From positions 420,368 through 484,367 of the forward strand of contig CP060233.1 in the NCBI GenBank assembly GCA_023898665.1: a stretch of DNA of 64,000 bases. Reading direction: 5' to 3'. The DNA comes from Candidatus Nomurabacteria bacterium. GTDB lineage: Bacteria; Patescibacteriota; Saccharimonadia; Saccharimonadales; HK-STAS-PATE-42. A program made the translations under genes and the position numbers. The notes under the pieces were generated by a model. It was not told the origin of the DNA and made no database searches. It was given only the letters and a program-made list of their open reading frames with translations. Within the stretch, counting starts at the first letter, position 1, and every line of letters starts with the position of its first letter. Below, in pieces: positions 4,879-17,639 of the stretch.

Positions 4879-6336
4879 CTATCTGATGTTTCTGCCTTTC
4901 CAATCTACCTTGCCGAATTCGTACTTATACATTGATGTTAAGTTCAGGTAAACCTCTACCACTATCATTATTGGTAGATTAAATATGGCTAAGAACCAGC
5001 CACTCGGGTTTACTCGTGTCACTAACATTAGATGAGATAACCACCAAAAGATTGTTGCAATAACTCCTAAAATAACACTTAGGGTATATTGCTGAGTTGT
5101 AATTGCCTCGTATAGCCCAAGAGCTGGAGCGACTAAAGCTGCTAAGATTAATAAAATCATGTAGCATACTAGTGCTGGATTTCTGCCAATATGAGGGTAG
5201 TAGCTTCTAACTGAAGAATCCCATAAGCTCGATAGCTTTTTTCTTGTTATGACTCCATCATCTGCATTAGCAAAGGCATAAAAATAAGAGTCAGTTGAGT
5301 AAAGTTTAGTAGCTAAGTTTTTTTCTGGGTTTACTACATCAGGTATTTCTGTAAAAGTCTTTAAGTCAAGTAGAGCTGATTTCTCGACCATCCATAGGCT
5401 ACTAGAGACTGGGGGACGCTTTAGTAAATTTCTAAATGTAGTCTGCCATAGTAATCTTAGGGGCTGAAGAAGCTGGGGCCAGAAATCTAGATGTAATAGC
5501 ATTGGCTGGAGAGAAATCATCTTATATGTATAGAATTTTGAGAATTGGATCATCCTACTGATTGTTCTGGGTGATATTTTTGTATCGACTCCTAAGAATA
5601 AAATGTAATCACCACTTGCTTCTTGTGTTAATCTCTCGAAAGCCCAGTTTTGTCCTAGCCAGCCAAGTGGAGGCTCTTGGCCCGAGATGAATCTAACTCC
5701 ATTGTTAGCGTAAAAGCTCATTAGGCTTCCGGTTCCGTCTGTACTGCAGTCATCAAGTACTATAACCTCCATCTTTTCGTAATCGGAGCTTAATACAGCA
5801 TTTAAACAGTCGGCTAAAGCTTTATCCTCGTTTCTGGCGGCGATAGCGACAGTTACAGTTGGTTGCTGGGCTTTACTAAGCTTTGGTGTTTTATAAAGTC
5901 TAGACTTACTGATAGTTCTTATAACATTAAATAAAGCCGTAACTGACCCCACAAAGCTTATGCCTATTACAGAATCTACAAACAAGCTAAAGTTTAGGGA
6001 TTGGGTGAGTTGAATCTCAAGAGAAAATATTAGGCAGAGTCCTAATAGTAAGAATGCAGTGTTTGTCCAGATAGAAGCTGACATACTTTTGTTATCTATT
6101 CTGTCTGAGCCGTATCTTAAGAAGTTGAAACTTAAAAATAGAATTAAAGTAGCCATAACATAAATGCTGATATCAAAGCCATATTGGTAGAGCCAGAATA
6201 ATGAAGTTAAGTTTAGAGCGGATATAACTTGATTTAGAGATTTAGTTATAAGATTTGGTTTTAAAAAGCATATAATAGACGATAATAAGCTAGTTATAGC
6301 TGCTGTCTCTACTGCGTATATTAGGTAGATGTTCAT
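4879..6336 (-). CDS. polytopic membrane glycosyltransferase, family 2
   Basis: 485 aa. The GT2 core VTVAIAARNEDKAL...VIVLDDCSTDGT is flanked by multiple N- and C-terminal TM helices. Confidence 0.75.
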   Translation of the reverse strand: MNIYLIYAVETAAITSLLSSIICFLKPNLITKSLNQVISALNLTSLFWLYQYGFDISIYVMATLILFLSFNFLRYGSDRIDNKSMSASIWTNTAFLLLGLCLIFSLEIQLTQSLNFSLFVDSVIGISFVGSVTALFNVIRTISKSRLYKTPKLSKAQQPTVTVAIAARNEDKALADCLNAVLSSDYEKMEVIVLDDCSTDGTGSLMSFYANNGVRFISGQEPPLGWLGQNWAFERLTQEASGDYILFLGVDTKISPRTISRMIQFSKFYTYKMISLQPMLLHLDFWPQLLQPLRLLWQTTFRNLLKRPPVSSSLWMVEKSALLDLKTFTEIPDVVNPEKNLATKLYSTDSYFYAFANADDGVITRKKLSSLWDSSVRSYYPHIGRNPALVCYMILLILAALVAPALGLYEAITTQQYTLSVILGVIATIFWWLSHLMLVTRVNPSGWFLAIFNLPIMIVVEVYLNLTSMYKYEFGKVDWKGRNIR

Positions 6337-7524: not shown

Positions 7525-8595
7525 TTATTTATTTAGTCCTGATTTTACGGTTTTCCAGATGCTTGGGTCACCGTTTTGGAGGTGCCAATACCACCACTCT
7601 GCTCCCCAAAAATAAACCTCTTTTATGCCGGTCTTTTTGGCAAAGTTAATGTTCCTTTTGACGTCTTCAACGCTCATGGTTTTGTTCTGTTCTTCTAGAC
7701 TAGTGTTTTTGGTATCTCCTGAAATTGTCCATGGTTCGAGTTGGAACTCGTGAATAATACTTGGCTTGCCAGTTAGGCTCTTTTGACCTTGAGCTAAAAA
7801 GGCATAGTACCAAGCTGGGAATGGGTATGTTACATAACCTAGAGTTTTGTTATGCACTTTTCTGTAAACACTTATTCCATAAATGTCTGCTTCTGGTTTA
7901 CCCAAGGCAAAACCACCGTAGTTATTTGATCTCGTTAAAATTATTGGTGTTTTTGGATCAAGATTTTTAACTAAGTTGAATTCATCTACTAACCTTTCTC
8001 TTGAATAGTCTGGACAGATTCCAAAGTCTTTTAGAAAATACTCATTCTCTAGTTGATAACTTTCTAAAGCTGGGTTATTCTTATATCTCTTAACAACTTC
8101 GGACAAGTATATCTTGAGGCTCGGATACCATTCTTCTTTAGGTAGATTTTTAGACCATTCTGGCTGATGACATTCTGGCCATCTAGGCTGTCTTAATCCT
8201 ATAGAAAGTGAGATCTTAACTCCTTTTTTTTCAGCTTCGGCAAATTGCCAGTCTAGATCCGAGAAGTCATATTTGCCCTTTTCTTTTTCTCCTTCAGACC
8301 AGTAGCTAACTAATCTTATTTTTCTTAAGTTTAGATCATCTAATATTGCACTATAGGTTTGTTTAGGATCAAGACCATAATGCTCAGCATGACTCGATAC
8401 AAAAGTTGTGCCAAACTCGTAACCTTTATTCTTCTCTGAAAGTTGATATTTAAATGACACCAACCTCATTACAAGGATGATTAGTATTATAGTTAAGGCA
8501 AGGCTGAATAGTATTTTTTGAAGTTTACTAAAAGAGCCCCAAATACTTTTTAGGTATTTTGGGGTCTCCTTGAGTTTAGATAATCTGGTATTCAT
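7525..8595 (-). CDS. membrane-anchored TIM-barrel glycoside hydrolase (clan GH-A-like)
   Basis: 356 aa. N-terminal TM helix, a QLENEY acid/base-type motif and a later HEFQLEPW motif, as in GH5/GH42-like clan A enzymes. Family assignment is tentative. Confidence 0.5.
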   Translation of the reverse strand: MNTRLSKLKETPKYLKSIWGSFSKLQKILFSLALTIILIILVMRLVSFKYQLSEKNKGYEFGTTFVSSHAEHYGLDPKQTYSAILDDLNLRKIRLVSYWSEGEKEKGKYDFSDLDWQFAEAEKKGVKISLSIGLRQPRWPECHQPEWSKNLPKEEWYPSLKIYLSEVVKRYKNNPALESYQLENEYFLKDFGICPDYSRERLVDEFNLVKNLDPKTPIILTRSNNYGGFALGKPEADIYGISVYRKVHNKTLGYVTYPFPAWYYAFLAQGQKSLTGKPSIIHEFQLEPWTISGDTKNTSLEEQNKTMSVEDVKRNINFAKKTGIKEVYFWGAEWWYWHLQNGDPSIWKTVKSGLNK

Positions 8596-8616
8596 CTTCT
8601 ATAGTGACAATCCTTC

Positions 8617-8692
8617 TGGTCGGGGTGATAGGACTTGAACCTACGACCTCACGGTCCCAAACCGCGCGCGCTACCAACTGCGCCACACCCCG
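8617..8692 (-). tRNA. tRNA-Pro (anticodon TGG), CCA encoded
   Basis: Reverse complement is CGGGGTG..GCGC AGTTGGT AGCGC..CGCGG TTTGGGA CCGTG..GTAGG TTCAAGT CCTAT CACCCCG A CCA. Cloverleaf folded by hand. Confidence 0.9.
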
Positions 8693-8721
8693 TATAAAAA
8701 TGAGCCATCTTGTGTCTCTTA

Positions 8722-8730
8722 ATTATAACA
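8722..8730 (-). promoter_or_regulatory. extended -10 promoter TGTTATAAT for tRNA-Pro
   Basis: Minus strand reads CTGTTATAAT about 29 nt upstream of the tRNA-Pro 5' end. Confidence 0.55.
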
Positions 8731-8744
8731 GATTACCCTGTAAT

Positions 8745-9215
8745 TTATCTAAATAGCAATCCTACTGCTACGCCAAATCCACATGCTGCTCCACCTATAA
8801 GTAGTGTTTTTAGGGCGTATTTTATTTTATCGCCACCTAAGATATATCCTCTCCATAAGCCTAGAAAGAATAGGCTTAAGAACGTGAAGCTAATTATTAA
8901 CGTATTGTTGAGAGATCCAAATATCAGTAGTGGTAGCATAACCCAAAGTCCTGCCAAAAAGTAAGAGACAAGCATTGCAATCCCTTTTTTTAGTGCAGCC
9001 TCTTCTTTTTCGGGGTTATCGTCGTTGGAGATGAATTCTCCGGCCCCCATGCTGGTGGCTTCTACTACTATTGTAATGAGCCCGGCAGCAAGTACAGTCT
9101 CTTTATTTGTACCGGCTGCTATGAGACCTACTATCACTCCTGTAGTAGATACAAAACTGTCTTCTACACCAAAAACTACAGTCCTTAAGTTTTCTTTAAT
9201 GTTTTTCATATACAT
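8745..9215 (-). CDS. VIT1/CCC1-family (iron/manganese) transporter-like membrane protein
   Basis: 156 aa with several TM helices. The N-terminal VFGVEDSFVSTTGVIVGL resembles the VIT-family signature. Confidence 0.55.
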   Translation of the reverse strand: MYMKNIKENLRTVVFGVEDSFVSTTGVIVGLIAAGTNKETVLAAGLITIVVEATSMGAGEFISNDDNPEKEEAALKKGIAMLVSYFLAGLWVMLPLLIFGSLNNTLIISFTFLSLFFLGLWRGYILGGDKIKYALKTLLIGGAACGFGVAVGLLFR

Positions 9216-9242
9216 ATTTAGTATATCTTATTTATTTAAAGC

Positions 9243-10496
9243 CTAAGCTCTTTTTAAGAGTAGTTCAAAATATTTTGTACTACCGAAAGGTATTTTTTGC
9301 TTAACTAAACTTTTACCAGGTAAAGAATTGGCCGAACAGATCGTAAAATTACCAAACTTGTCATTTATTTCATCAACAGCTTGTGTTAACCACTCGGCTT
9401 TATTAACTTCTTCGAATATCCCAACCTGATTTCTGTTTGATGGCTCTAGCTTATAGCAAGTGATAGACATCTGCTTGATTTCTTCATTCTTTGGTCTTTG
9501 ATTTATTAAATATAGAGCTCTTCTATAAACTTCTTGGTCGGTATAAAAGCTTGACTTATACATTTTACGTTTAACCCAGTATTCTCCACTTTGTAAATGT
9601 AAGGCAACCATAACTCCTCGGGCGCACTTATTGTTATAGCGTAGTTTTTGCGCGGTTGTCTCACATAAATAATGGAAACACGGTAAAATGTATTTTTCTT
9701 CTTTTGAAGTTTGTCCTAGAACCCATTGTCTCCCTACTTGCCCGAGTTTAGTTGGTTTATCGTCTACTTCATAACCTTTTAGACGTTTGTACCAGTACTC
9801 TCCTACGATGCTATGGAAGACTTGCCTTCTTAAAAAGTCTGGACCTGCTCTGTAAAAATCTAAAACGGTAAATATGCCAACGGCATTAAGTCTAGCCTGA
9901 TAATGCAGGGCTATACCAGTTAAGTCAGTTAGTTCTATTTGTTTGTAGTAGTTAATAAGATTGTCGTGATTTAAGATATCTAGCCCGTCTGGTTTGTGCC
10001 ACCCGGCAGCTTGTTTGGCTAAAAATCTGTTTGTGCCAATTCCAATATTAATTTTCATCCAGCAACCAAGCTCTTTTTTAACTTGTTCTTTAATCTCTAG
10101 ACCTATCTCTTCTAGGGATCTAGTGTTAACTCCTCTGGTGCCGTTAAAGTCGATAATGCCTTCATCGATGCTCTTCATCTCGACATTAGGAGAGTAGCTT
10201 TTCATGATTTTAATTAACTTTTGGTAGACGAAGTTATATTTGGGTGGATCAGTTTCTAGGATAATAAAGTCGGGGTAAATCGCTCTTGCATCTGTTAAGC
10301 TCATACCTACTTTGATGCCAAGAGCTTTGGCCTCGTAAGAGCAGGCTATAACGCAGCAGTGTTTAGATATTCTGTTTGTCACACCCATTGGTTTGCCACG
10401 TAGGCTTGGTCTAGCCTGCTGCTCAGTGGTGGCAAAGGCACTATTGAGATCAATATGCATGATCTGTGGTTCATCTTGATTAATTGATAATTGCAT
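9243..10496 (-). CDS. dinB: Y-family DNA polymerase (DinB/Pol IV-like)
   Basis: 417 aa. MHIDLNSAFATTEQQARPSLRGKPMGV corresponds to the DxDxFYAS.E catalytic N-terminus. SIDEG and palm/finger/little-finger-length architecture are present. Confidence 0.8.
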   Translation of the reverse strand: MQLSINQDEPQIMHIDLNSAFATTEQQARPSLRGKPMGVTNRISKHCCVIACSYEAKALGIKVGMSLTDARAIYPDFIILETDPPKYNFVYQKLIKIMKSYSPNVEMKSIDEGIIDFNGTRGVNTRSLEEIGLEIKEQVKKELGCWMKINIGIGTNRFLAKQAAGWHKPDGLDILNHDNLINYYKQIELTDLTGIALHYQARLNAVGIFTVLDFYRAGPDFLRRQVFHSIVGEYWYKRLKGYEVDDKPTKLGQVGRQWVLGQTSKEEKYILPCFHYLCETTAQKLRYNNKCARGVMVALHLQSGEYWVKRKMYKSSFYTDQEVYRRALYLINQRPKNEEIKQMSITCYKLEPSNRNQVGIFEEVNKAEWLTQAVDEINDKFGNFTICSANSLPGKSLVKQKIPFGSTKYFELLLKRA

Positions 10497-10519
10497 ATAA
10501 CATTTTTATTAGTTAATAT

Positions 10520-10861
10520 TTGCTTATGATTAGGGATGTACTAGTTAATATATTTGAGGTTAAGCCTTTGCCTATAAACTCTACTATCTTCCCCGCTGAC
10601 TTTGAACTTGCGAAAAAGCGGCGGAATTATCTTAGTGCTATATCAGTGGCCTTGGGAGCTGCTAGCTTACTCTGGGCAAATAGGTATGGCCTTGGTGATG
10701 GTTTAGATATCCTTGCTTCTGAGATGTCTTTTGCTGCTAGTATGGCTAATGCAGTTAATTCTCATGCGGTAGCTAAATATGGCAGGTATCTAAAGGCTGA
10801 GGACTTCTACGAGGGTCCAGGTCAATCCTCCAGCGTCGAACTCGAGCCGGTAGTCGTTTAA
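10520..10861 (+). CDS. hypothetical protein (uncertain; its 3' end overlaps the convergent gene by 72 nt)
   Basis: 113-aa ORF with one hydrophobic segment. The last ~24 codons are antisense to the conserved C-terminus of the 88-aa gene. Confidence 0.3.
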   Translation: MLMIRDVLVNIFEVKPLPINSTIFPADFELAKKRRNYLSAISVALGAASLLWANRYGLGDGLDILASEMSFAASMANAVNSHAVAKYGRYLKAEDFYEGPGQSSSVELEPVVV

Positions 10862-11056
10862 GCCATCTGACATATCAAAGACATGGATCATTCTTTGGCC
10901 TTTTGAGGTTGGATGTCTTAAGCCTAGCTCTTTAAAGACTACTTCTTTTTCTTTCCACCGCATTTTGTGCGGAAAACATAATGTTTGTATATCTCCCTTT
11001 GCTCTAAATGAGCAGATTACATCGACTCGTTGATCAACTTTCTGTATTGTTTTCAT
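10790..11056 (-). CDS. small conserved hypothetical protein, paralog A (88 aa)
   Basis: Colinear with ORF 14651..14920, about 27% identity by hand alignment with one gap. Shared positions: M.T.QK....V.V...F.........C.P..M......V.F......VFD..D....YRL.F....L.W.L..V. A GGAGG SD lies 10 nt before the ATG. Confidence 0.65.
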   Translation of the reverse strand: MKTIQKVDQRVDVICSFRAKGDIQTLCFPHKMRWKEKEVVFKELGLRHPTSKGQRMIHVFDMSDGLNDYRLEFDAGGLTWTLVEVLSL

Positions 11057-11123
11057 ACTGTTAAGGCCTCCATTGGTTAAAGAGTTAATTTTAAGACGAA
11101 CGTGTGGCGTTTTTTGCCGATCT

Positions 11124-11142
11124 GGAGGTGATAACAGTGACC
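11124..11142 (-). promoter_or_regulatory. conserved leader box GGTCACTGTTATCACCTCC (anti-SD candidate) upstream of paralog A
   Basis: The same box (GGTCACTGTTAATCCTCCC) occurs in the leader of paralog B. Here ACTGTTA..CCTCC is complementary to GGAGG..TAACAGT, which abuts the ATG (11057-11071). Confidence 0.5.
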
Positions 11143-11343
11143 TAGGTGTGTATCCCTAAAATAAAAATCTTATAAAGGCTACTAACTAAACCTTAAGTAA
11201 AAAATAGGAGTGCTAGTATGTCTCAATGTTTAGTATAGCAAAAGTTAGGTAACTATATGAGCAATGCTAGTAAAATATCGACTGAGTGATTTTAAGTGGC
11301 TCATACTTTGAATATTAAGTAAGTTTATTGTGCTATTGAAGTA

Positions 11344-12291
11344 CTAGTTCCCTATTAAGACCAGTGAGTTACTTAACCCTTTATATGTTTTATAGTGTCG
11401 ATTTGATAAGAGTGAGTTAGATATAACTTTTTTGATTAGTTCATCTGTAAATCGTCTTGACCTTAGTAGTAATATTTCTGAACCAGATTCAATTATTGTA
11501 TCTTTATTATTGTGGTGTATCCTAAGGGTTTGTTTAGTCTTTGCTTTTATTTCCACCTCTTGATTCTTCTCGTTCCAGCTAACACTTGGGTCTGATAGGC
11601 GAATGCCTATTCTTTTAGCTGTTGAACATACAAGTTTAAGCTCTTCTTTTAAGGAGTAGGATATTAAGAGAGAATCTTTGATGTCTGGTTGATAATTAGC
11701 TAAACCAATGAGGATTAAATCTGACTTGCTAGCCAGTTGCATCACATTGTTAAGTATTTTGCTAGGATCTTTGTAGTTACCAAGTGAGTTCCCTAGAATC
11801 ATTACCAAATTGATGTAGTAAGGCTTCAACCCTTCTCTGAGCTTAGTTAGATCGTCTTTTTCAAAGTCCATAATATATACTTCAGTACTTATAGCTTTTA
11901 TTTTTTTATCTATATTATTTTTGGCCAGAGATGCCATCTCTTTGCTTATATCAACTGCAGTGTATGTAACCTGAACATTCTGTTCAAGTATTTCTTGTAA
12001 TATATCCTTCGCTGTTAATCCATTACCACATCCTATATCTATGATATTAATTCCTTTAACGCCCCGCTGAATCACGGACGCTATAGCGTTGTCTAAATTC
12101 TTCTTGATAAGAGTGTTCTCATCTGATGTATTGATATTTAACATCGACCATTTTTTACTTAGTGCATCCCAGTACTTAGCACCTTCCCCTAAATAAGAGT
12201 ACTTACTCAGGATTTCCGATTCTTTAGACAGTGAGTTGTATAGATCTTCTTCACTTATGACGACGTTCTTCATAGCTCTAGAGTATAGCAA
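11344..12291 (-). CDS. class I SAM-dependent methyltransferase (EgtD/Methyltransf_33-like layout)
   Basis: 315 aa. SAM motif I is IIDIGCGNG, followed by VDIS, ILGNSLGNY and a long C-terminal substrate domain, as in histidine-specific methyltransferase-type enzymes. The subfamily is inference. Confidence 0.6.
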   Translation of the reverse strand: MLYSRAMKNVVISEEDLYNSLSKESEILSKYSYLGEGAKYWDALSKKWSMLNINTSDENTLIKKNLDNAIASVIQRGVKGINIIDIGCGNGLTAKDILQEILEQNVQVTYTAVDISKEMASLAKNNIDKKIKAISTEVYIMDFEKDDLTKLREGLKPYYINLVMILGNSLGNYKDPSKILNNVMQLASKSDLILIGLANYQPDIKDSLLISYSLKEELKLVCSTAKRIGIRLSDPSVSWNEKNQEVEIKAKTKQTLRIHHNNKDTIIESGSEILLLRSRRFTDELIKKVISNSLLSNRHYKTYKGLSNSLVLIGN

Positions 12292-12475
12292 AACTCCTAC
12301 TTTAACAGATGTTGATTAAATACTTATGCTTGGCAGAGACTCACGTACCCTATCCAAACTTTTTGAGGAGGTGGTTGAGTTGCCTGATGAGTGCAATCAG
12401 ACACTGGTTAAGACTAAAGATATAATAGTTAATCCACAAAAGAAGTTTATCGTGGGGTTGAGGTACTAGCTTTTG

Positions 12476-13177
12476 CTATGAATGGCTTCTAAAAACTAGG
12501 GCGTGTTGGTCATAACCATCGCTAGAACTAGCTTTCAATACACCTTTTACTTTGGGATTTCTACTTAATTCTTTACCTATTCTAGTTATCTCAGGATTAT
12601 CGTAAACATCAGCCAGTAAGTACGGAATTTGCAGAAAGGCTACTCCTCCTGGCTTTAACAAGTCTACTATGACCTGGGCTGCTCCAGAGTAAAATCTCGT
12701 AGGTAAGTACTGTAGACCGCCCACTGGCCTATGTAGAATTAAATCAAAGCCTCCGTTGGTATTTAAACTTGCCCATTCTATTATTTTTTGCCAGGTATCC
12801 CGATGCACTAAGTTTCCAGCAATATGATCTACAAGTGGGTTATACCTTGAAGCGGGGCATCTTCGGTCCTCGTAGTTTGTCAGCAGGCCCTTTCCTATGG
12901 CACCAATATCAATTAAGTCTTGTAGGGCAGCTCCGTTGCTCCCTCCTGCAAGATCCATCGCAGTATTAGAAGTGTCTTTGCCAATTATTTTTGTGACTAC
13001 TCCAGGCCCTCGTCCTAAGCCAGGGAAATGAACATTAAAGAAGTAGCTGGATAGTCCAGAATCATTTACTGTCCACTCTCCATCTCCGCATTCATCTAAG
13101 AACTCTGCTTCCAAGGGCGTTTGTTTTATTCCGTCTAGAAAGGAAAGAGATGGGGCGGAGTGTTGATCAGAGGGCAT
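12476..13177 (-). CDS. hypothetical protein, possible class I methyltransferase fold (GC-elevated)
   Basis: 233 aa. MDLAGGSNGAALQDL (motif I-like), FDLILHRP and LLKPGGVAFLQ (motif III-like). Hand count of 12841-12900 gives 53% GC. Confidence 0.4.
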   Translation of the reverse strand: MPSDQHSAPSLSFLDGIKQTPLEAEFLDECGDGEWTVNDSGLSSYFFNVHFPGLGRGPGVVTKIIGKDTSNTAMDLAGGSNGAALQDLIDIGAIGKGLLTNYEDRRCPASRYNPLVDHIAGNLVHRDTWQKIIEWASLNTNGGFDLILHRPVGGLQYLPTRFYSGAAQVIVDLLKPGGVAFLQIPYLLADVYDNPEITRIGKELSRNPKVKGVLKASSSDGYDQHALVFRSHS

Positions 13178-13197
13178 AGGACACTTCTTAAGGCTGA

Positions 13198-13827
13198 CTA
13201 CCCTTCTTTTGGCTTGATGGTCACAGGCCCAACTGGTCCGAGTACTACGCCTGACGGTAGAGCTCTCCTGAGACGGTCAATTACTGCTTGGTCAAAAAGT
13301 TCTAGGTCTCCAGCGAAAGCTGCAAACTTTAGTTTTTGGTAAGGGTGAGATTGCCTAAAGGTTGTGGGCAACCCTAGCATATCGCGTATGGCGGTCTTCT
13401 CCCCTTCCATAAGATGTCCAGCTGGGTACATTGATGTCTCTATGTCTCTAAGTTTAATGTCCATACGTATCTTTCCAGTATCTGGGTGTGTAAAGAAGCT
13501 TAAAGATGCGTCAGAAGGATCTATGTAGCCAGTCGATGCTATACCTCCTAGCTTGCCTGTATTGGTTAGATGATCTAAGACTGCTTGAGTGCTAGCCTTA
13601 AATAGTTCCCCCCTCTCTTCGTCTGTGGTATCTGGCAGATGTGGGGCTAGATCTTTGTCTGGCACATATCTTACCGCTGGAGCATCAATTAAGGCTATGT
13701 GTAGGCCAGAAGGGAGCTCTTGAGTGAATCTTCCTATGGCTTCGGCACACCACACATCTCGACCTACTCGACCGATAGCGTATTGATTCTGGAAGGTACT
13801 CACCGTTTCTAAATCTGTCATAATCAT
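13198..13827 (-). CDS. hypothetical protein (GC-elevated, no recognised family)
   Basis: The long ORF 13198..13872 probably starts at an ATG at 13827 or 13821, just after a TGTTATTAT extended -10 box. Hand count of 13201-13260 gives 57% GC. Confidence 0.45.
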   Translation of the reverse strand: MIMTDLETVSTFQNQYAIGRVGRDVWCAEAIGRFTQELPSGLHIALIDAPAVRYVPDKDLAPHLPDTTDEERGELFKASTQAVLDHLTNTGKLGGIASTGYIDPSDASLSFFTHPDTGKIRMDIKLRDIETSMYPAGHLMEGEKTAIRDMLGLPTTFRQSHPYQKLKFAAFAGDLELFDQAVIDRLRRALPSGVVLGPVGPVTIKPKEG

Positions 13828-14101
13828 CCTATATAATAACATCTTTAGGATAAAAGAGCAAACGTATACCATAGGCTGTGAGCCGAAGAATTATGGTTGT
13901 GTGACGTACCTCAACAGAGTAGCTCTACTTTTGAGTATCACTAAAAGTTGTCAAGGGTTAGGATGATCTTGTCCCACCGCGATTATTCTTCTCGAACTTT
14001 TCTGTATTAGCTCCTGTTTAAGGCAATAAACATGGGTCGAGAGTAACCTTAGAACTGAAAAAACACTGGTCTGGGTTCGTAAAAAATAATGAATTCCTCT
14101 C

Positions 14102-14178
14102 TGGCAGGGGTGATAGGACTCGAACCTACGACACCCGGTTTTGGAGACCGGTGCTCTAGCCAACTGAGCTACACCCCT
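14102..14178 (-). tRNA. tRNA-Trp (anticodon CCA), CCA end encoded
   Basis: Reverse complement is AGGGGTG..GCTC AGTTGGCTA GAGC..CCGGT CTCCAAA ACCGG..GTAGG TTCGAGT CCTAT CACCCCT G CCA. Confidence 0.9.
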
Positions 14179-14192
14179 CTACCTAAGAACTA

Positions 14193-14201
14193 ATTATAAC
14201 A
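14193..14201 (-). promoter_or_regulatory. extended -10 promoter TGTTATAAT for tRNA-Trp
   Basis: Minus strand reads CTGTTATAAT 14 nt upstream of the tRNA 5' end. Confidence 0.6.
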
Positions 14202-14212
14202 GTTAAAAGAAT

Positions 14213-14593
14213 TTACTGAACAGTTACTCCTGTAAATTTGTATTTTTGGAAGATTAAGATCTTACCATTTTTAACCGCTGAGGCTTTAAGATTAACTGCT
14301 TCGTCTTTTACGTTAAAGCATCTTAAGTTAGCTTCTTTCCCAGTTTCTGTACTTATAATTCCTCCTTTTAACTCACAGTCTCTAAGCCCATTAAGCTTAG
14401 CGGCAGTCTCGGCATTTTCGGTTTGGCCAGATTCTTTTAAGCCTTTATTTACAGCAGAAGTTATCCAGCTATTTTGTGCCCATGATTTTCCAAATACTAC
14501 CCCAAAAACAAATATTAAGATGATAATGGCTAAGATAATTAGTTTCTTCATGAATTTGAACATTGTTTGATTGATTAAGCTTAAGTCTAACAT
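14213..14593 (-). CDS. small exported/membrane-anchored hypothetical protein
   Basis: 126-aa ORF with signal-anchor MKKLIILAIIILIFVFGVVFG. The antisense ORF 14238..14570 looks like noise. Confidence 0.5.
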   Translation of the reverse strand: MLDLSLINQTMFKFMKKLIILAIIILIFVFGVVFGKSWAQNSWITSAVNKGLKESGQTENAETAAKLNGLRDCELKGGIISTETGKEANLRCFNVKDEAVNLKASAVKNGKILIFQKYKFTGVTVQ

Positions 14594-14650
14594 AAAAAAC
14601 CTCTTTTTTGAGGAGGTTTAGTTATGTAAGCATAAGATTATTGATTAATT

Positions 14651-14920
14651 TTATGTACTTTTTAGCCCAACTGAGTCTAGTAACCAGCTTAGGTTGTCTA
14701 TATTAAAAATTAATCGGTATCTTCTTGTTTGGTCAAATAGGTCAAAGACTCTTCTTTCGCTGTCAGATTGGTCGGCATAGTTTATTCTAAATTTGTTGAA
14801 GGTGACCTGGTTCCCGCGGAACTCCATCTCTACCGGTTCGCAGATGAATCCTCCAGCATCCTCGTCTTCGAAGCGAGCTTTTACTTTTACTTGTTCGTTG
14901 ATTTTTTGTGCTGTGCTCAT
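14651..14920 (-). CDS. small conserved hypothetical protein, paralog B (89 aa)
   Basis: Paralog of 10790..11056 (see that entry). It is preceded by a 387-nt non-coding leader. Confidence 0.65.
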   Translation of the reverse strand: MSTAQKINEQVKVKARFEDEDAGGFICEPVEMEFRGNQVTFNKFRINYADQSDSERRVFDLFDQTRRYRLIFNIDNLSWLLDSVGLKST

Positions 14921-15130
14921 AGTATCTTACCTTTCGTAAATTAAATTTGTTAAGTAATTTGATTCCTAAACTTGAACTTATCTATTGTTGGGAAAGGAGA
15001 TGGCTTATTAATTAGAGAAGTTTTTTAGAAAGCAAAAACAGCCTGACGGTTATTTATCAAACTTTTAATTTTGCGCTTCTTGGCTCCTAAAAGCTTAGGC
15101 TGCTTCTCCGAGCACTAGAGAAACTCTTTC

Positions 15131-15149
15131 GGGAGGATTAACAGTGACC
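15131..15149 (-). promoter_or_regulatory. conserved leader box GGTCACTGTTAATCCTCCC upstream of paralog B
   Basis: About 16-17 of 19 positions are shared with the box at 11124..11142 (one-base indel), same orientation relative to the paralogous genes. Confidence 0.45.
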
Positions 15150-15307
15150 GTAAACTTACTGTAAGTTTTGGTATATTTCCTCTATCTCTTTTTGTTAATA
15201 AGCCTACAAGCTAAAAGTTTAACTAGTGCTTGTATCGCTAGATATAATTATAGACCTCAAAGAGCTTATGTTTCTAGTAGGTTTTGTTGTCTTTTGTGCT
15301 ACAATGT

Positions 15308-15904
15308 TTAGTCGTTCTTTACTAGTCCAACATGCTGAGCATAGCAGGCTCCGCAAAGAGACTCGTAGGCTATATCCATTGAAGACCCATCGATAGCAAC
15401 TTGGTCTCCCTCGAGCACAAACTCTCCATTGATTTTACGCCCATTAAATATTGCGTTGCTACCACAGCGACAAACAGTCCTTATCTCTTTAATTACGTGA
15501 GCTATTTCAAGTAGTCGTGTTGATCCTGGAAACCCCCGGGTTCTAAAGTCCCCCCTTAAGCCGTAGGACATAACTGGTATACCTGGATCTAAGGTTAGGG
15601 CAAAGAGTTGGTCTATTTGGTCAGGACTAAAGAATTGAGCTTCATCGGCAAATATACAGCCTATAGGTTCTCCTCCTACATGTTCTGGAATAGCTTGCCA
15701 AAGATCCATGTCTGGCGTAGCTACAAGATCTACCATCCTATCTATACCGACTCTGGAGGTTACCTTGTTTTCTCCCTTAGTGTCTGTACCAGGTTTGACT
15801 AGAAAGGGTTTCATTCCAATCTCTTCATAATTGTGTGCTGCCCTAAGTAGTTCTATGGTTTTGCCGCTGTTCATTGCCCCGTAGTGAAAGTATAGTTTAG
15901 CCAT
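15308..15904 (-). CDS. tdk: thymidine kinase
   Basis: P-loop YGAMNSGKT, FADEAQFF, and C-terminal zinc ribbon CRCG...CGAC. The start is taken at ATG 15904 (MAKLYFHYG), preceded by TGCTAAACT plus 7 nt. Confidence 0.9.
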   Translation of the reverse strand: MAKLYFHYGAMNSGKTIELLRAAHNYEEIGMKPFLVKPGTDTKGENKVTSRVGIDRMVDLVATPDMDLWQAIPEHVGGEPIGCIFADEAQFFSPDQIDQLFALTLDPGIPVMSYGLRGDFRTRGFPGSTRLLEIAHVIKEIRTVCRCGSNAIFNGRKINGEFVLEGDQVAIDGSSMDIAYESLCGACYAQHVGLVKND

Positions 15905-15929
15905 ATGTTTAAGTTTAGCAAAAAAAACT

Positions 15930-16436
15930 CTAGTTTTCTGGTTGCATACCATAGGCCTTTTCGTAATCTGTGATGCCGCTATCTAAGCATTTTGAAAAGT
16001 TTCTGAGAATACCGATATTACCACCTCTTTTATTCTCAGCCTTTGAATCTTCAATAACTTTAATCTGTGTTTTTAGCTCGTTTTTGTCACCTTTAAGAAA
16101 TGCAATTGTTCCGTTTACGTAGGCGTTCCAGCATTCCTTTTCATTTTCATAGCTTTTCTGAAAGCATTCAATGGCATCTTTGTAAAATTTAGTTCCGGCG
16201 TATCCAAAAGATTGGCCAGCGTGAAAGTAGAGTAAGTCAATTGGAAGGACTTCGCCACCAACTTTTCCTTTATTGTATTCATCAATTTTATTACCGCTAA
16301 GCTTAATGTATTGGAGAATTAGCTCAGCAATGTGTTCTTCACTTACTTCTCCAACTAATGATCTCCAGCCGTTAACAGCTTGATCAAATTCAACAGGATC
16401 CATCTCTAGGAACTTGCAATATCTTTTTTCTAACAT
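15930..16436 (-). CDS. hypothetical protein (helical, TPR-like?)
   Basis: 168-aa ORF with no recognised family. Confidence 0.45.
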   Translation of the reverse strand: MLEKRYCKFLEMDPVEFDQAVNGWRSLVGEVSEEHIAELILQYIKLSGNKIDEYNKGKVGGEVLPIDLLYFHAGQSFGYAGTKFYKDAIECFQKSYENEKECWNAYVNGTIAFLKGDKNELKTQIKVIEDSKAENKRGGNIGILRNFSKCLDSGITDYEKAYGMQPEN

Positions 16437-16461
16437 GATGTTATTAAGTTTAGCTCAGGTC

Positions 16462-16492
16462 TGTAAAAGAATACAAAGCCACTAATGTGGCT
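16462..16492 (-). terminator. hairpin terminator downstream of tmRNA
   Basis: AGCCAC-ATTA-GTGGCT hairpin (16477..16492), followed on the minus strand by the U-rich UUGUAUUCUUUU. Confidence 0.5.
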
Positions 16493-16505
16493 ATAAAATC
16501 CCTTA

Positions 16506-16945
16506 TGGTGGAGCTGGCGGGAACTGCCCCCGCGTCCGATTAGTTAACTGATTGAATACTTTTCAACATGCTTATTTTTTCTTATTTTTTACGTTTAAAG
16601 AAGCTAAAGAAAAAAGAAAAATCTAAAATAAACGACGCTTTTCAAAGTTTAAATCTTAATGTAAGAAGCGTTACTCTTCGATCAAGATCGAGCCAGAAAT
16701 AATATGACATCTTAAACTCTCGAAAGCCTGGCAAAAGAGAATAAGATGGCAAGCCTAAAATTTAGGCTGCTAGTGCGTAATCAGCTTTAAGAATTGCGAT
16801 ATTCTCGCGGATTCTTGCAGCGACTTCGCTAACTTTACTGTTTGCAGTTAAGTTGTCTTGCCCTGTAACGGTGAGCACACCCGACATGCATACACTCAAT
16901 CTGTTAAAGTTCTATCCGTCTAGATGCTAAAAATGCTTCAGCCCC
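16506..16945 (-). ncRNA. ssrA: tmRNA (SsrA)
   Basis: 5' GGGGCTG pairs with 3' CAGCTCC-A-CCA, including the G3:U70 alanine identity pair. T-arm is GCGGG/CCCGC. An internal ORF starting GCAAAC ends in ...KADYALAA-TAA. The 5' TAGACGGA resembles the conserved TTCGACGGG. Confidence 0.85.
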
Positions 16946-16955
16946 ATCTATACAG

Positions 16956-16964
16956 ATATTAACA
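16956..16964 (-). promoter_or_regulatory. extended -10 promoter TGTTAATAT for tmRNA
   Basis: Minus strand reads TGTTAATAT 10 nt upstream of the tmRNA 5' GGGG. Confidence 0.45.
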
Positions 16965-17075
16965 TAAACCTTATCTGTTTGTAAATGCTGGGCTTATGCT
17001 AATATAGTTTTTAAATATAGTCTTTGAACTTATCTCCTTAATAAATACCTAAACAATCCAAAAAGAAATAATACT

Positions 17076-17639
17076 ATGACTATTTCTCAAAAAAAGAAAC
17101 TTGCCAAGTCTGTCACCACTTTAATACTCATAGTTATCGGAGGATTTTATCAGCTTAAAACTAAAAACAATAACTTAGATACGAGTCAAGTTGGATATTA
17201 TGATGTGGTTAGTATTGCCGATGGGGACACTATAACTGTAGATATGGAAGGCAAGAAAGAGAAGGTTAGGTTTATTGGAGTTGATACACCGGAGATATAC
17301 CATGGTGGAGATACCTCTCCATCTGAATGTTATGGAGAAAAAGCCAAAGCTTATATTGAGGCCGCAATAGACAATAAAAGAGTTAAACTTGTGGCAGATG
17401 AAAAAGGATCTAATCGTGATAAATACGGAAGATTATTAAGATATGTTTATAATTATCAAAACTTAAGTTTAGATGAAACTCTGGTCTCTGAAGGATATGG
17501 CTTTGCTGTTGATGGGTTTGCGTATTCAAAGAAGCAAGAATATTTAAGCTTAATGAATGATGCTGAGAATAATAAAAAAGGTTTGTGGGCGATTTGTAAA
17601 ATTGATAGGTCTAAAGGTTACCCGGAGGTAGCTAACTGA
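17076..17639 (+). CDS. nuc: thermonuclease (staphylococcal nuclease homolog), membrane-anchored
   Basis: 187 aa. N-terminal TM helix, then GDTITV...[10 protein letters not shown]...YGRLLRYV, the SNase-fold signature. Confidence 0.8.

What the first reader, a model, noticed from the sequence alone, without database searches (positions are those of the whole stretch)
10790..15307. GC-elevated gene island beside tRNA-Trp, bracketed by two paralogous small genes in direct orientation
Immediately downstream of the 3' end of tRNA-Trp (14102) lie two minus-strand genes whose hand-counted GC is far above the local background. I counted 57% in 13201-13260 and 53% in 12841-12900, against 32% in 14221-14280. 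One product (233 aa) has class I methyltransferase-like motifs; the other (224 aa) matches nothing I recognise. They are followed by an unannotated 47-codon plus-strand ORF (12326..12469) and an EgtD-like SAM methyltransferase. The block is flanked on both sides by paralogous 88/89-aa genes (10790..11056 and 14651..14920), both on the minus strand, each with a long leader carrying the same 19-nt box. A tRNA 3' end next to a compositionally foreign cassette is the classic footprint of horizontal acquisition. No integrase survives. If this is an episymbiotic CPR organism, a high-GC (for example actinobacterial) host would be a plausible donor.
Basis: partly seen in the sequence, partly recalled or inferred. 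Interest (0 to 1): 0.6.

Follow-up and report, generated by a model that had tools for sequence, protein, structure and literature searches.

The report
Integrase-less gene cassette at tRNA-Trp
A 1.8-kb two-gene cassette was inserted at the very 3' end of the tRNA-Trp gene of a small Patescibacteria (CPR) genome; it ends in a conserved 47-codon element that copies the tRNA terminus, and the same element separates arrays of swappable cassettes in a few related genomes, with no integrase in sight.

Summary

The foreign unit is window 12331-14101 (1771 bp), not 10790-15307. It has 43.8% GC against 36.5 ± 2.2%, and it is the strongest GC and tetranucleotide outlier in the 64 kb.

It starts at the CCA end of tRNA-Trp. 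It ends at a 40-nt core (...GAGTCTCTGCCA) inside the 5' end of the 47-codon ORF.

In related Patescibacteria contigs this ORF and core recur in co-oriented arrays of 2-4 copies between variable genes, twice at the same locus. Sequences to the left and right of CTGCCA swap between true tRNA-Trp ends and element cores. That is an attL/attR-type signature of site-specific recombination.

The cargo is a class I methyltransferase-fold protein (233 aa) and an orphan protein (207 aa). Both have very few homologues, all on 40-43% GC contigs; one syntenic relative carries the pair beside tmRNA. An actinobacterial donor is not supported.

The paralogs are not borders. One is a syntenic core gene. The other is the partner of the neighbouring DinB polymerase.

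No recombinase was identified.

The parts
14102..14178 (-). tRNA-Trp (CCA). Its 3' terminus ...CACCCCTGCCA (14102-14112) is the left border of the cassette and the proposed attachment site.
   Evidence: ARAGORN and Rfam at 69 bits. 98.8% identical to the tRNA-Trp of L007. Junction sequences.
12331..14101 (-). The inserted cassette as delimited here (1771 bp): right-flank module, a 250-nt leader, the 207-aa gene, the 233-aa gene, the 47-codon ORF (antisense) and the att-like core.
   Evidence: GC 43.8% vs 36.5 ± 2.2% for same-size windows (maximum 42.3%), z = 3.4. Tetranucleotide distance z = 4.5, the largest of 294 windows. Borders come from the junction comparison. This material is absent from this site in L007.
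14073..14101 (-). 'Type C' right flank, GAGAGGAATTCATTATTTTTTACGAACCC, directly after the tRNA CCA.
   Evidence: The same flank (24 of 29 nt) follows an element core, not a tRNA, in L021 at 5350-5394.
13198..13821 (-). Orphan 207-aa protein (the longest ORF gives 224 aa from 13872). Cargo gene 1, function unknown.
   Evidence: Only 2 homologue clusters among 5.8 billion proteins. 80% identical to the L007 copy, which lies after tmRNA. No Pfam or NCBIfam hit. The AF2 model is unusable, pLDDT 31. Its synonymous codon usage is the most L007-like of 60 window genes, z = -2.8.
12476..13177 (-). 233-aa protein with a class I (Rossmann) SAM-methyltransferase-like fold. Cargo gene 2.
   Evidence: 7 homologue clusters among 5.8 billion proteins. 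AF2 pLDDT 82.6. Foldseek against PDB and BFVD returns only class I methyltransferases and spermidine synthases, E about 1e-6, TM 0.4-0.56. Invariant DLAGGSxG and DLILHRPxG motifs. No Pfam hit.
12326..12469 (+). 47-codon ORF, convergent with the 233-aa gene. It belongs to a small-protein family whose members are all 47 aa. Its ATG and the next 2 nt lie outside the cassette, in the type A flank.
   Evidence: 10 protein clusters, all 47 aa. No indels across 14 DNA copies. pN/pS = 0.47 in this frame against about 1 in the other same-strand frames. No Pfam or PDB relatives.
12331..12370 (-). att-like core, CTCCTCAAAAAGTTTGGATAGGGTACGTGAGTCTCTGCCA (read on the minus strand). It ends in a 7/8 copy of the tRNA-Trp terminus and forms the right border of the cassette.
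   Evidence: Nearly invariant in 16 copies from about 8 contigs. Synonymous differences 0.14 here vs 0.45 in the rest of the ORF. It is the only copy in the window. The only two CYCTGCCA sites in 8000-17500 are this one and the tRNA end.
12289..12330 (-). 'Type A' flank, AGCATAAGTATTTAATC, plus a weak hairpin and a T-run. It lies outside the cassette and supplies the ATG of the 47-codon ORF on the other strand.
   Evidence: Consensus AGCATAAGCGTTTTA + hairpin + TTTTG at 11 of 17 element junctions, with stems that vary in a compensatory way (CCTCT/AGAGG, CCCCT/AGGGG).
9216..12288 (-). The rest of the variable interval between tRNA-Trp and VIT1. It holds the Methyltransf_33 methyltransferase (11344-12291), the 88-aa gene (10790-11056) and the DinB-type polymerase (9243-10496). 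GC is at background level.
   Evidence: GC 36.6%. Pfam hits. Absent from the same interval in L007 and L021. The 88-aa/DinB pair is conserved in L063 and L064.
14651..14920 (-). 89-aa paralog. A core gene outside the cassette, not a border.
   Evidence: 74% identical orthologue at the same position (TK - 89 aa - ... - 126 aa - tRNA-Trp) in L007.
11124..11142 (-). It is complementary to the ribosome-binding region at 11057-11072.
   Evidence: ACUGUUA-UCA-CCUCCA pairs with UGGAGG-CCU-UAACAGU just before the AUG. The helix is present in the MFE fold (sequence).
15132..15149 (-).
   Evidence: Exact 11-mer shared with 11132-11142. Not conserved in L007. The leader folds well, z = -3.9.
8617..9215 (-). 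VIT1-family gene (8745-9215) and tRNA-Pro (8617-8692). Together they form the conserved far border of the variable interval.
   Evidence: Collinear with L007 and L021.

Best explanation
Window 12331-14101 is one small integrative gene cassette. It was inserted by site-specific recombination at the extreme 3' end of tRNA-Trp (crossover at or beside C-Y-CTGCCA). It belongs to a lineage-restricted family of integrase-less mini-elements that pile up in tandem at this tRNA in a few Patescibacteria.

Each unit has three parts: a short right-flank module with a terminator-like hairpin; one to three cargo genes; and a 144-nt module that encodes a 47-aa protein on the opposite strand. The first 40 nt or so of that module are the conserved recombination core, which ends in CTCTGCCA, a copy of the tRNA terminus.

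A new unit that enters at the tRNA junction restores the tRNA end and pushes older units away. The unit nearest the tRNA should therefore be the newest, and here it is the compositionally foreign one.

The recombinase is not in the cassette or in the window and must act in trans (inferred). The cargo is a 233-aa class I methyltransferase-fold enzyme and a 207-aa orphan partner. They probably came from another low-GC (about 42-43%) organism of the same group.

Shown: the borders, the composition, the arrays, the junction swapping, the rarity and context of the homologues, and the fold of the 233-aa protein. Inferred: the recombination mechanism, the direction of transfer, the trans-acting recombinase, and any activity of the cargo or of the 47-aa protein.
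For: 1. Junction swapping exactly at CTGCCA.
   - The window's tRNA-Trp is followed by GAGAGGAATTCATTATTTTTTACGAACCC. In L021 the same flank (24 of 29 nt) follows an element core.
   - L007's tRNA-Trp is followed by AAACGCTTATGTTT. That flank is identical over 14 nt to the one after the core of copy L016d, and close to the one after L021b.
   - Left of CTGCCA, the tRNA and the core share no similarity.
2. Arrays. There are 4 co-oriented copies in 6.5 kb (L009 = L016) and 4 in 5.4 kb (L021). L021's array runs up to the same VIT1/tRNA-Pro border as in the window. L007 has 2 copies directly after its tRNA-Trp, and L001 has 2.
3. The composition anomaly matches the junction-defined unit: GC z = 3.4 and tetranucleotide z = 4.5, with the rest of the variable interval at background.
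4. No adjustment to the host genome. GC3 of the pair is 0.39/0.35 in the window and 0.375/0.348 in L007. The eight shared core genes compared have GC3 6-15 points lower in the window.
5. Mobility of the cargo.
   - The pair sits in a clean 2.9-kb insertion after the tmRNA terminator in L007.
   - The 233-aa protein is 75% identical in L001. The only other gene of the 16 tested that L001 shares, a nuclease, is 38% identical.
   - Cargo genes recur in different combinations at about 75% identity.
6. The core is constrained at the nucleotide level, beyond what coding requires. Synonymous differences are 0.14 in the core vs 0.45 in the rest; pS is 0.18 vs 0.65.
7. The ORF's ATG lies across the crossover point. 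It is present at 10 of 11 type A junctions and at 0 of 6 others.
Against: - No recombinase was found in the window or in the array contigs. Only L001 has recombinases: two large serine recombinases several kb from its elements.
- Only two independent tRNA-Trp junctions and one tRNA-flank-type junction are available.
- The repeat shared by the tRNA and the core is only 7/8 nt, and means nothing without the cross-genome comparison.
- No empty site and no circular junction has been seen. All same-species contigs carry the cassette.
- The cargo is about as diverged from L007's copies (73-80% aa) as core genes are (61-95%). The transfer is therefore not recent, and vertical descent with relocation is not excluded.
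- Codon usage of the 233-aa gene is not unusual (z = -0.96). Part of the GC excess lies at codon positions 1 and 2, that is, in amino-acid composition.
- In L007 the same gene pair lies at tmRNA without any 47-codon element.
Confidence: 0.6

Rival explanations
1. The island spans 10790-15307, is bracketed by the paralogous 88/89-aa genes acting as border repeats, and came from a high-GC host such as an actinobacterium.
For: The GC rise next to a tRNA 3' end is real. The paralogs are real and in direct orientation. They share an 11-mer in their leaders.
Against: - The 89-aa gene is syntenic in L007, on the other side of the tRNA.
- The 88-aa gene is part of a conserved pair with DinB.
- The stretch 9216-12330 has background GC.
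- GC3 of 0.35-0.39 is far from actinobacterial values (the actinobacterial range is general knowledge).
- All homologues lie on contigs of 40-43% GC.
- The box is absent from the L007 leader.
Confidence: 0.03
2. No horizontal transfer. The pair is an old resident gene pair that moved within the locus by ordinary rearrangement. Its higher GC reflects amino-acid composition. The 47-codon ORF is simply a small gene that happens to be duplicated in a variable region.
For: - Amino-acid identity to L007 (73-80%) falls within the range of core genes (61-95%).
- Codon usage of the 233-aa gene is within the distribution.
- GC1 and GC2 are raised as well as GC3.
- The arrangement is fixed within the species.
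Against: - The segment is the top tetranucleotide and GC outlier, and the anomaly stops at the junction-defined borders.
- GC3 of the pair has not followed the 6-15-point drop seen in the shared core genes.
- The 233-aa protein is 75% identical in L001 and 77% in L012, whose other shared genes are only 38-40% identical.
- The flank swapping at CTGCCA is not explained.
Confidence: 0.15
3. Cassettes are exchanged by homologous recombination, not by a site-specific recombinase. DNA taken up from relatives recombines through the conserved anchors: the tRNA genes, the 40-75-nt element core and the flank modules. The 47-aa protein is unrelated to mobility, for example a small regulator or insulator at cassette ends.
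For: - No recombinase was found.
- Individual cargo genes are reshuffled at a finer scale than the element-bounded units.
- Element DNA is more conserved between genomes (82-84% nt) than the flanking genes (66-77%).
- Published work finds that most gene transfer in Patescibacteria is within the phylum (PMC12455944).
Against: The swap point between the tRNA and the core is sharp, and the two share only 7/8 nt there. That is too short for RecA-type exchange (general knowledge of minimal homology lengths). Strict co-orientation and the tRNA-terminus mimicry are what a site-specific system predicts.
Confidence: 0.2

Closest known systems
Genomic islands and integrative elements inserted at the 3' end of tRNA or tmRNA genes (tyrosine-integrase type)
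   Same: Insertion exactly at the tRNA 3' terminus with the tRNA kept intact. A short copy of the tRNA end sits at the far border. Composition is atypical. The site varies between relatives, and a related insertion lies beside tmRNA in L007.
   Different: There is no integrase in the element. The unit is only 1.8 kb with two cargo genes. The repeat of the tRNA end is only 7/8 nt. The far border is a conserved 40-nt core with no similarity to the tRNA, embedded in a small ORF.
CIMEs (cis-mobilizable elements) and tandem accretion at att sites, as described for streptococcal ICE/IME families (review PMC5704250)
   Same: Integrase-less units that keep their att sites and are stacked in tandem at a tRNA gene. 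Internal junctions look like attP-type hybrids. Mobilisation would need an integrase supplied in trans.
   Different: CIMEs are decayed remnants of larger elements, usually many kb long. Here the units are 0.6-1.8 kb. They share a conserved, apparently functional 47-aa gene, and no parental ICE, IME or prophage is known. Conjugation machinery was not looked for.
Integron gene-cassette arrays (IntI, attI, attC), especially chromosomal arrays with conserved repeats of about 120-130 nt
   Same: Arrays of one- or two-gene cassettes separated by a co-oriented repeat of about 150 nt. On the model proposed here the newest cassette lies next to the anchoring site, as next to attI in integrons. The cargo is diverse and mostly of unknown function.
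   Different: No IntI, attI or Pc next to the array. The repeat has no conserved hairpin (0 conserved pairs), so it is not attC-like. The anchor is a tRNA terminus. The repeat encodes a protein.
Class I SAM-dependent methyltransferases (for the 233-aa cargo protein)
   Same: Rossmann-type fold with a glycine-rich loop (DLAGGSxG), an acidic residue after strand 2, and a DLILHRPxG segment where amino-methyltransferases carry DLILxNPPY (the motif comparison is from general knowledge, not tested).
   Different: No Pfam or NCBIfam model matches. Motif I is shifted and motif IV is HRPV, so catalytic activity and substrate are unknown. TM-scores to solved structures are only 0.40-0.48.

Membership tests
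tRNA-targeted integrative genomic island | Lies directly at the 3' end of an intact tRNA gene | tested here: met
   The cassette starts at 14101, one base after the CCA of tRNA-Trp.
tRNA-targeted integrative genomic island | Flanked by direct repeats that copy the 3' part of the tRNA (attL/attR) | tested here: inconclusive
   Only a 7/8-nt repeat, CCCTGCCA / CTCTGCCA. No longer repeat lies in 9000-14100. Support comes instead from the cross-genome swap of left and right halves at this octamer.
tRNA-targeted integrative genomic island | Encodes its own integrase | tested here: not met
   No recombinase domain in the cassette, in the scanned ORFs of window 6.4-18.7 kb, or in 20 larger ORFs scanned elsewhere in the window. 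The L001 serine recombinase has no match in the window.
tRNA-targeted integrative genomic island | Atypical composition, and presence/absence among relatives | tested here: met
   GC z = 3.4 and tetranucleotide z = 4.5. The cassette is absent from this site in L007, which has other cassettes there. It is fixed within the species.
CIME / tandem accretion array | Integrase-less units bounded by att sites and stacked at one attachment site | tested here: met
   Arrays of 2-4 co-oriented units. tRNA|flank, core|flank and core|tRNA-type-flank junctions were observed.
CIME / tandem accretion array | A related autonomous element (ICE, IME or prophage) whose integrase acts on the same att site | not testable with these tools
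   The rest of the 692-kb genome and the genomes of the relatives are not available here. The phage, plasmid and IMG/VR searches found nothing.
Integron | IntI integrase with attI and Pc next to the array | tested here: not met
   In the window the variable interval is bounded by tRNA-Trp and by VIT1/tRNA-Pro; L007 has both borders and L021 the VIT1/tRNA-Pro border. No integrase is present.
Integron | attC sites: imperfect palindromes that fold as single strands | tested here: not met
   RNAalifold on 14 copies gave 0 conserved pairs. This used RNA energy parameters; ssDNA folding of single copies was not run.
Class I SAM-dependent methyltransferase (233-aa protein) | Rossmann-like seven-strand fold | tested here: met
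   AF2 pLDDT 82.6. The listed top Foldseek hits against PDB, and most named ones against BFVD, are class I methyltransferases or spermidine synthases.
Class I SAM-dependent methyltransferase (233-aa protein) | Match to a curated family model, and canonical SAM-binding and catalytic motifs | tested here: not met
   No Pfam or NCBIfam hit. Motif I is DLAGGSNG and the motif IV position reads HRPV.
EgtD (L-histidine N-alpha-methyltransferase), for the 315-aa neighbour | Score above the equivalog cut-off over the full length | tested here: not met
   TIGR03438 scores 61.8 bits against a cut-off of 290.9, and only residues 10-193 align. The Pfam Methyltransf_33 domain is met.

The most novel reading that the evidence does not exclude
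The 47-codon module is the heart of a previously undescribed cassette-capture system in Patescibacteria, anchored at tRNA-Trp. Its 40-nt core is a recombination site that copies the tRNA terminus. The 47-aa protein, which has no known relatives, would be a recombination accessory or directionality factor. Its start codon is supplied only by one kind of neighbouring flank (type A), so expression would depend on which junction recombination has created. The system would work with a recombinase encoded elsewhere, or of an unrecognised kind, and would give these tiny genomes an integron-like way to sample accessory genes.
Probability: 0.15. Interest if true: 0.8.

Novelty: new variant of a known kind. 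Interest (0 to 1): 0.5.

Why it matters
Mobile elements and routes of gene exchange in CPR/Patescibacteria are poorly known, and these organisms lack genetic tools. This locus offers three things: a compact, sequence-defined attachment site at tRNA-Trp; a family of 0.6-1.8-kb cassettes that move between related genomes; and a conserved 47-aa protein with no known relatives.

If a matching recombinase can be found, the system would be a concrete, testable mechanism for accessory-gene turnover in these reduced genomes, and a possible integration tool.

For the original finding the practical result is more modest. The island is real but smaller than proposed. It was exchanged among low-GC organisms of the same group, not taken from a high-GC host. 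It is not bracketed by the paralogs.

Tried and rejected
- **Known RNA families.** Rfam over the window (gathering thresholds) and over 10400-15500 (E up to 5) found only the three tRNAs and tmRNA. Nothing matched in the leaders or in the 47-codon element.
- **A structured RNA or tRNA-like element on the cassette strand.** Rejected: 0 conserved pairs in 14 copies, and ARAGORN finds nothing there.
- **A sigma-70-type promoter (TTAACA-17-TATGCT) in front of the 47-codon ORF**. Dropped: the TAACAG motif is the loop of the conserved flank hairpin, and promoter-like hits in the region are no more frequent than in shuffles.
- **A long direct repeat of the tRNA-Trp 3' end inside the island.** None found. 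The only long match is the T-arm of tRNA-Pro, 25 of 26 nt.
- **att-like repeats around L007's tmRNA-side insertion.** None.
- **The paralogs as island borders.** Rejected.
- **An actinobacterial donor.** Rejected on GC3 and on the contigs that carry the homologues.
- **Structure of the 207-aa protein.** Failed, pLDDT 31, because only two sequences were available.
- **Collection scans with the core pattern.**
  - All 23 JGI metagenome hits and all 5 IMG/VR hits were chance matches with no 47-aa ORF.
  - Of 16 genome hits, only three loci, from two MAGs, were real.
- **Phage and plasmid collections.** No match to the 233-aa protein or to the cassette.
- **Pfam and PDB profile searches with the 47-aa family.** Nothing meaningful.
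- **A search for a 47-element or core remnant elsewhere in the window.** Only one copy exists.

Full report
**Source and setting**

The window is a low-GC (36.7%) Patescibacteria genome. The exact 233-aa protein is recorded on a 692-kb contig of a MAG that NCBI names Candidatus Nomurabacteria bacterium.

Read on the minus strand, the gene order is as follows:
- RuvB, SNase (on the opposite strand), tmRNA (16506-16920), a 168-aa gene and thymidine kinase;
- the 89-aa gene, a 126-aa gene and tRNA-Trp (14102-14178);
- the 207/224-aa gene, the 233-aa gene and the 47-codon ORF (on the opposite strand);
- a Methyltransf_33 methyltransferase, the 88-aa gene and a DinB-type polymerase;
- VIT1, tRNA-Pro, a 356-aa gene and RmuC (on the opposite strand).

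**Checking the observation**

- The three hand-counted GC values are exact.
- The two genes have the highest gene-level GC in the window: 43.6% and 45.6% against a mean of 37.4%, sd 3.5. Their GC3 is 0.35 and 0.39 against 0.29, sd 0.05. The excess is real but moderate, and part of it lies at codon positions 1 and 2.
- The 88-aa and 89-aa proteins are paralogs (30% identity, E = 1e-11).
- The shared 'box' is an exact 11-mer followed by TC..CCTCC with an indel.
- No recombinase domain was found in the region or in 20 further large ORFs of the window.

**What relatives show**

The 233-aa protein has 7 homologue clusters among 5.8 billion proteins. The 207-aa protein has 2.

Contig L007 (42.9% GC) is collinear with the window from RuvB to the 383-aa RmuC gene, at 61-95% amino-acid identity. 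It differs in two places.
- L007 carries the homologues of the two genes, with three extra genes, in a clean 2936-bp insertion just after the tmRNA terminator. In the window the tmRNA flank is uninterrupted at that point (16454). No repeats flank the insertion.
- The interval from tRNA-Trp to VIT1 holds entirely different genes in the two genomes.

Same-species contigs from several samples keep the window's order.

The 233-aa protein is also 75-77% identical on contigs whose other shared genes are only 38-40% identical (L001, L012). It is 47% identical on L004, which carries a ParB-methylase, a sigma factor and a helicase.

GC3 of the pair is the same in the window (0.39, 0.35) and in L007 (0.375, 0.348). 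The eight shared core genes compared have GC3 6-15 points lower in the window. Synonymous codon usage of the 207-aa gene is the most L007-like of 60 window genes (z = -2.8). The 233-aa gene is unremarkable (z = -0.96).

All homologue-bearing contigs have 40-43% GC. A donor resembling these contigs fits. An actinobacterial one does not.

**The 47-codon ORF is the key**

It is not a chance ORF.
- It defines a family of 10 protein clusters, all exactly 47 aa.
- Fourteen aligned DNA copies have no indel across the 144 nt.
- pN/pS is 0.47 in its frame, against about 1 in the other same-strand frames.
- Stop codons TAG, TAA and TGA alternate at the same position.

The copies occur in co-oriented arrays between variable genes.
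- L009 (= L016) has four copies in 6.5 kb.
- L021, a 'Patescibacteria group' MAG, has four in 5.4 kb. Its array runs up to a VIT1/tRNA-Pro border 76-77% identical to the window's.
- L007 has two copies right after its tRNA-Trp, and L001 has two.

Cargo genes between the copies are diverse: peptidase S51, DUF218, sugar transferase, NUDIX, a kinase-like protein, a PadR-like protein and a cupin. Several recur in different combinations at about 75% identity.

Codons 3-14 of the ORF are almost invariant at the nucleotide level. Synonymous differences are 0.14 there against 0.45 in the rest; pS is 0.18 against 0.65. A DNA-level constraint therefore overlaps the coding sequence.

**Junction anatomy**

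Read on the strand of the cargo genes, each element ends ...CTCAAAAAGTTTGGATAGGGTACGTGAGTCTCTGCCA. A short flank module and a hairpin with a T-run follow. The tRNA-Trp gene ends ...TCCTATCACCCCTGCCA.

The sequences to the right of CTGCCA fall into types, and each type is found after either kind of left half.
- **Type A** (AGCATAAGCGTTTTA...) follows 11 of 17 element cores.
- **Type B** (AAACGCTTATGTTT) follows the cores of L016d and L021b, and also the true tRNA-Trp of L007, where it is identical over 14 nt.
- **Type C** (GA.A.GAATTC.T.ATTTT.TACGAACCC) follows the true tRNA-Trp of the window, and also the last core of the L021 array (24 of 29 nt).

Left of CTGCCA, the tRNA and the core are unrelated. 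Such reciprocal combinations, joined at one octamer, are what attL, attR and attP-type junctions look like after site-specific integration and tandem accretion (definitions in PMC5704250).

The only two CYCTGCCA sites in window 8000-17500 are the tRNA end and the core at 12331-12338. They delimit a unit, 12331-14101.

This unit is the strongest GC outlier (43.8%, z = 3.4) and the strongest tetranucleotide outlier (z = 4.5, largest of 294 windows) in the 64 kb. The remainder of the variable interval has 36.6% GC. The agreement between junction-defined and composition-defined borders is the main reason I accept the cassette model.

One further detail concerns the ORF's start. The ATG of the 47-codon ORF lies across the crossover, in the type A flank. 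It is present at 10 of 11 type A junctions and at none of the 6 others.

**What the element is not**

- RNAalifold finds no conserved pairing in 14 copies, so it is neither an attC-like hairpin nor a structured RNA.
- Rfam, Pfam and PDB profile searches give nothing for it.
- Pattern hits in IMG/VR, in JGI metagenomes and in most genomes were chance matches.
- Nothing matches in the phage or plasmid collections.

**Cargo**

The 233-aa protein gives a confident model (pLDDT 82.6). It matches only class I methyltransferase-fold proteins: spermidine synthases, Rv0187, Trm4, TrmI, M.TaqI, TrmN and viral FtsJ-like enzymes. TM-scores are modest, 0.40-0.56.

The invariant motifs DLAGGSxG and DLILHRPxG are visible in the alignment. 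No curated family model matches. I infer a SAM-dependent transferase of unknown substrate, with about even odds that it is catalytically active.

The 207-aa partner is an orphan whose structure could not be predicted. In L001 and L007 a 108-aa gene precedes the methyltransferase-like gene. That gene is missing from the window.

**The paralogs and their leaders**

- The 89-aa gene is core: it has a syntenic orthologue in L007 at 74% identity.
- The 88-aa gene has homologues (50-61%). In L063 and L064 the homologue overlaps by 4 nt the start of a DinB homologue (59-60% identity). The 88-aa gene and DinB therefore form a conserved module.
That helix would hide the ribosome-binding site.
- In the 89-aa leader the box has no such partner and is not conserved in L007, although the leader as a whole folds well (z = -3.9).

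**Verdict**

The best explanation is an integrase-less mini-cassette inserted at the tRNA-Trp terminus, one member of a small family that forms arrays in a few Patescibacteria (confidence 0.6).

The main gaps are these:
- the missing recombinase;
- the small number of independent junctions;
- the lack of an empty site or a circular junction.

Published surveys already report many genomic islands in Patescibacteria, with transfer mostly within the phylum (PMC12455944). The island as such is therefore ordinary. The element that bounds it appears to be undescribed.

Noticed in passing
window 9243-11056 (-); L063 6001-7520; L064 1563-3049: The 88-aa gene and the DinB-type Y-family polymerase form a conserved pair. 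In two other contigs a 91-aa homologue (50% identity) overlaps by 4 nt the start of a DinB homologue (59-60% identity). The small protein may be an accessory subunit of the polymerase, as UmuD and YolD are for their polymerases (analogy from general knowledge, not tested).
   Followed up: partly
window 11124-11142 and 11057-11072 (-): In the 88-aa gene's leader, the 'box' ACUGUUA-UCA-CCUCCA is complementary (7 + 6 bp) to UGGAGG-CCU-UAACAGU, which covers the Shine-Dalgarno sequence and ends at the AUG. This looks like a translation-blocking helix. The whole leader is not unusually stable (z = -1.4).
   Followed up: partly
window 14921-15307 (-): The 387-nt spacer between thymidine kinase and the 89-aa gene holds a promoter-like site (TAGAAA-18-TATAAT, 15276-15247). 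Nucleotide similarity to L007 continues about 125 nt past the thymidine kinase stop. The predicted 320-nt leader folds much better than shuffles (z = -3.9, 0 of 100). No Rfam family matches.
   Followed up: partly
L007 7789-10724 (window equivalent: between 16454 and 16455): A clean 2.9-kb insertion just after the tmRNA terminator in the relative. It carries 121-aa, 217-aa, 207-aa, 108-aa and 229-aa genes, including the homologues of the window's two cargo genes. It has no flanking repeats and no 47-codon element.
   Followed up: yes
window 8622-8647 and 14107-14132 (-): tRNA-Trp and tRNA-Pro, which bound the variable interval in direct orientation, share 25 of 26 nt across the T-arm and the start of the acceptor stem. 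The same holds in L007 and L021. This may be ordinary tRNA similarity, or it may be a substrate for deletion.
   Followed up: no
element junctions, e.g. L016 6103-6193, L021 1981-2071, L007 13692-13705: Flank type B (AAAACGCTTATG) is the exact reverse complement of the CATAAGCGTTTT segment of flank type A. The two types therefore differ by a 12-nt inversion next to the crossover point.
   Followed up: no
L001 1242-2513 and 17991-19243: Two paralogous large serine recombinases (49% identical) flank a 15-kb stretch. That stretch holds the 233-aa homologue, its 108-aa partner and two 47-codon elements. They are the only recombinases seen near any copy of the element.
   Followed up: partly
L004 1313-3684: Three adjacent genes with 51-60% GC (GC3 up to 0.67) sit in a contig of 42.6% GC that also carries the distant 233-aa homologue, a ParB-methylase, a 660-aa sigma-70-like protein and a helicase. 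This may be a separate foreign insert in a plasmid- or phage-like element.
   Followed up: no
window 10520-10861 (+): A 113-aa ORF (44% GC, hydrophobic stretches) lies antisense between DinB and the 88-aa gene and overlaps the latter's 3' end by 72 nt. It was called as a 111-aa gene in same-species contigs. Whether it is real is unknown.
   Followed up: no
window 13873-14072 (-): The untranslated stretch between the type C flank and the 207-aa gene contains TTGAGGTACGTCAC. This resembles the GGGTACGTGAG segment of the element core and could be a second binding site. It may also be chance.
   Followed up: no
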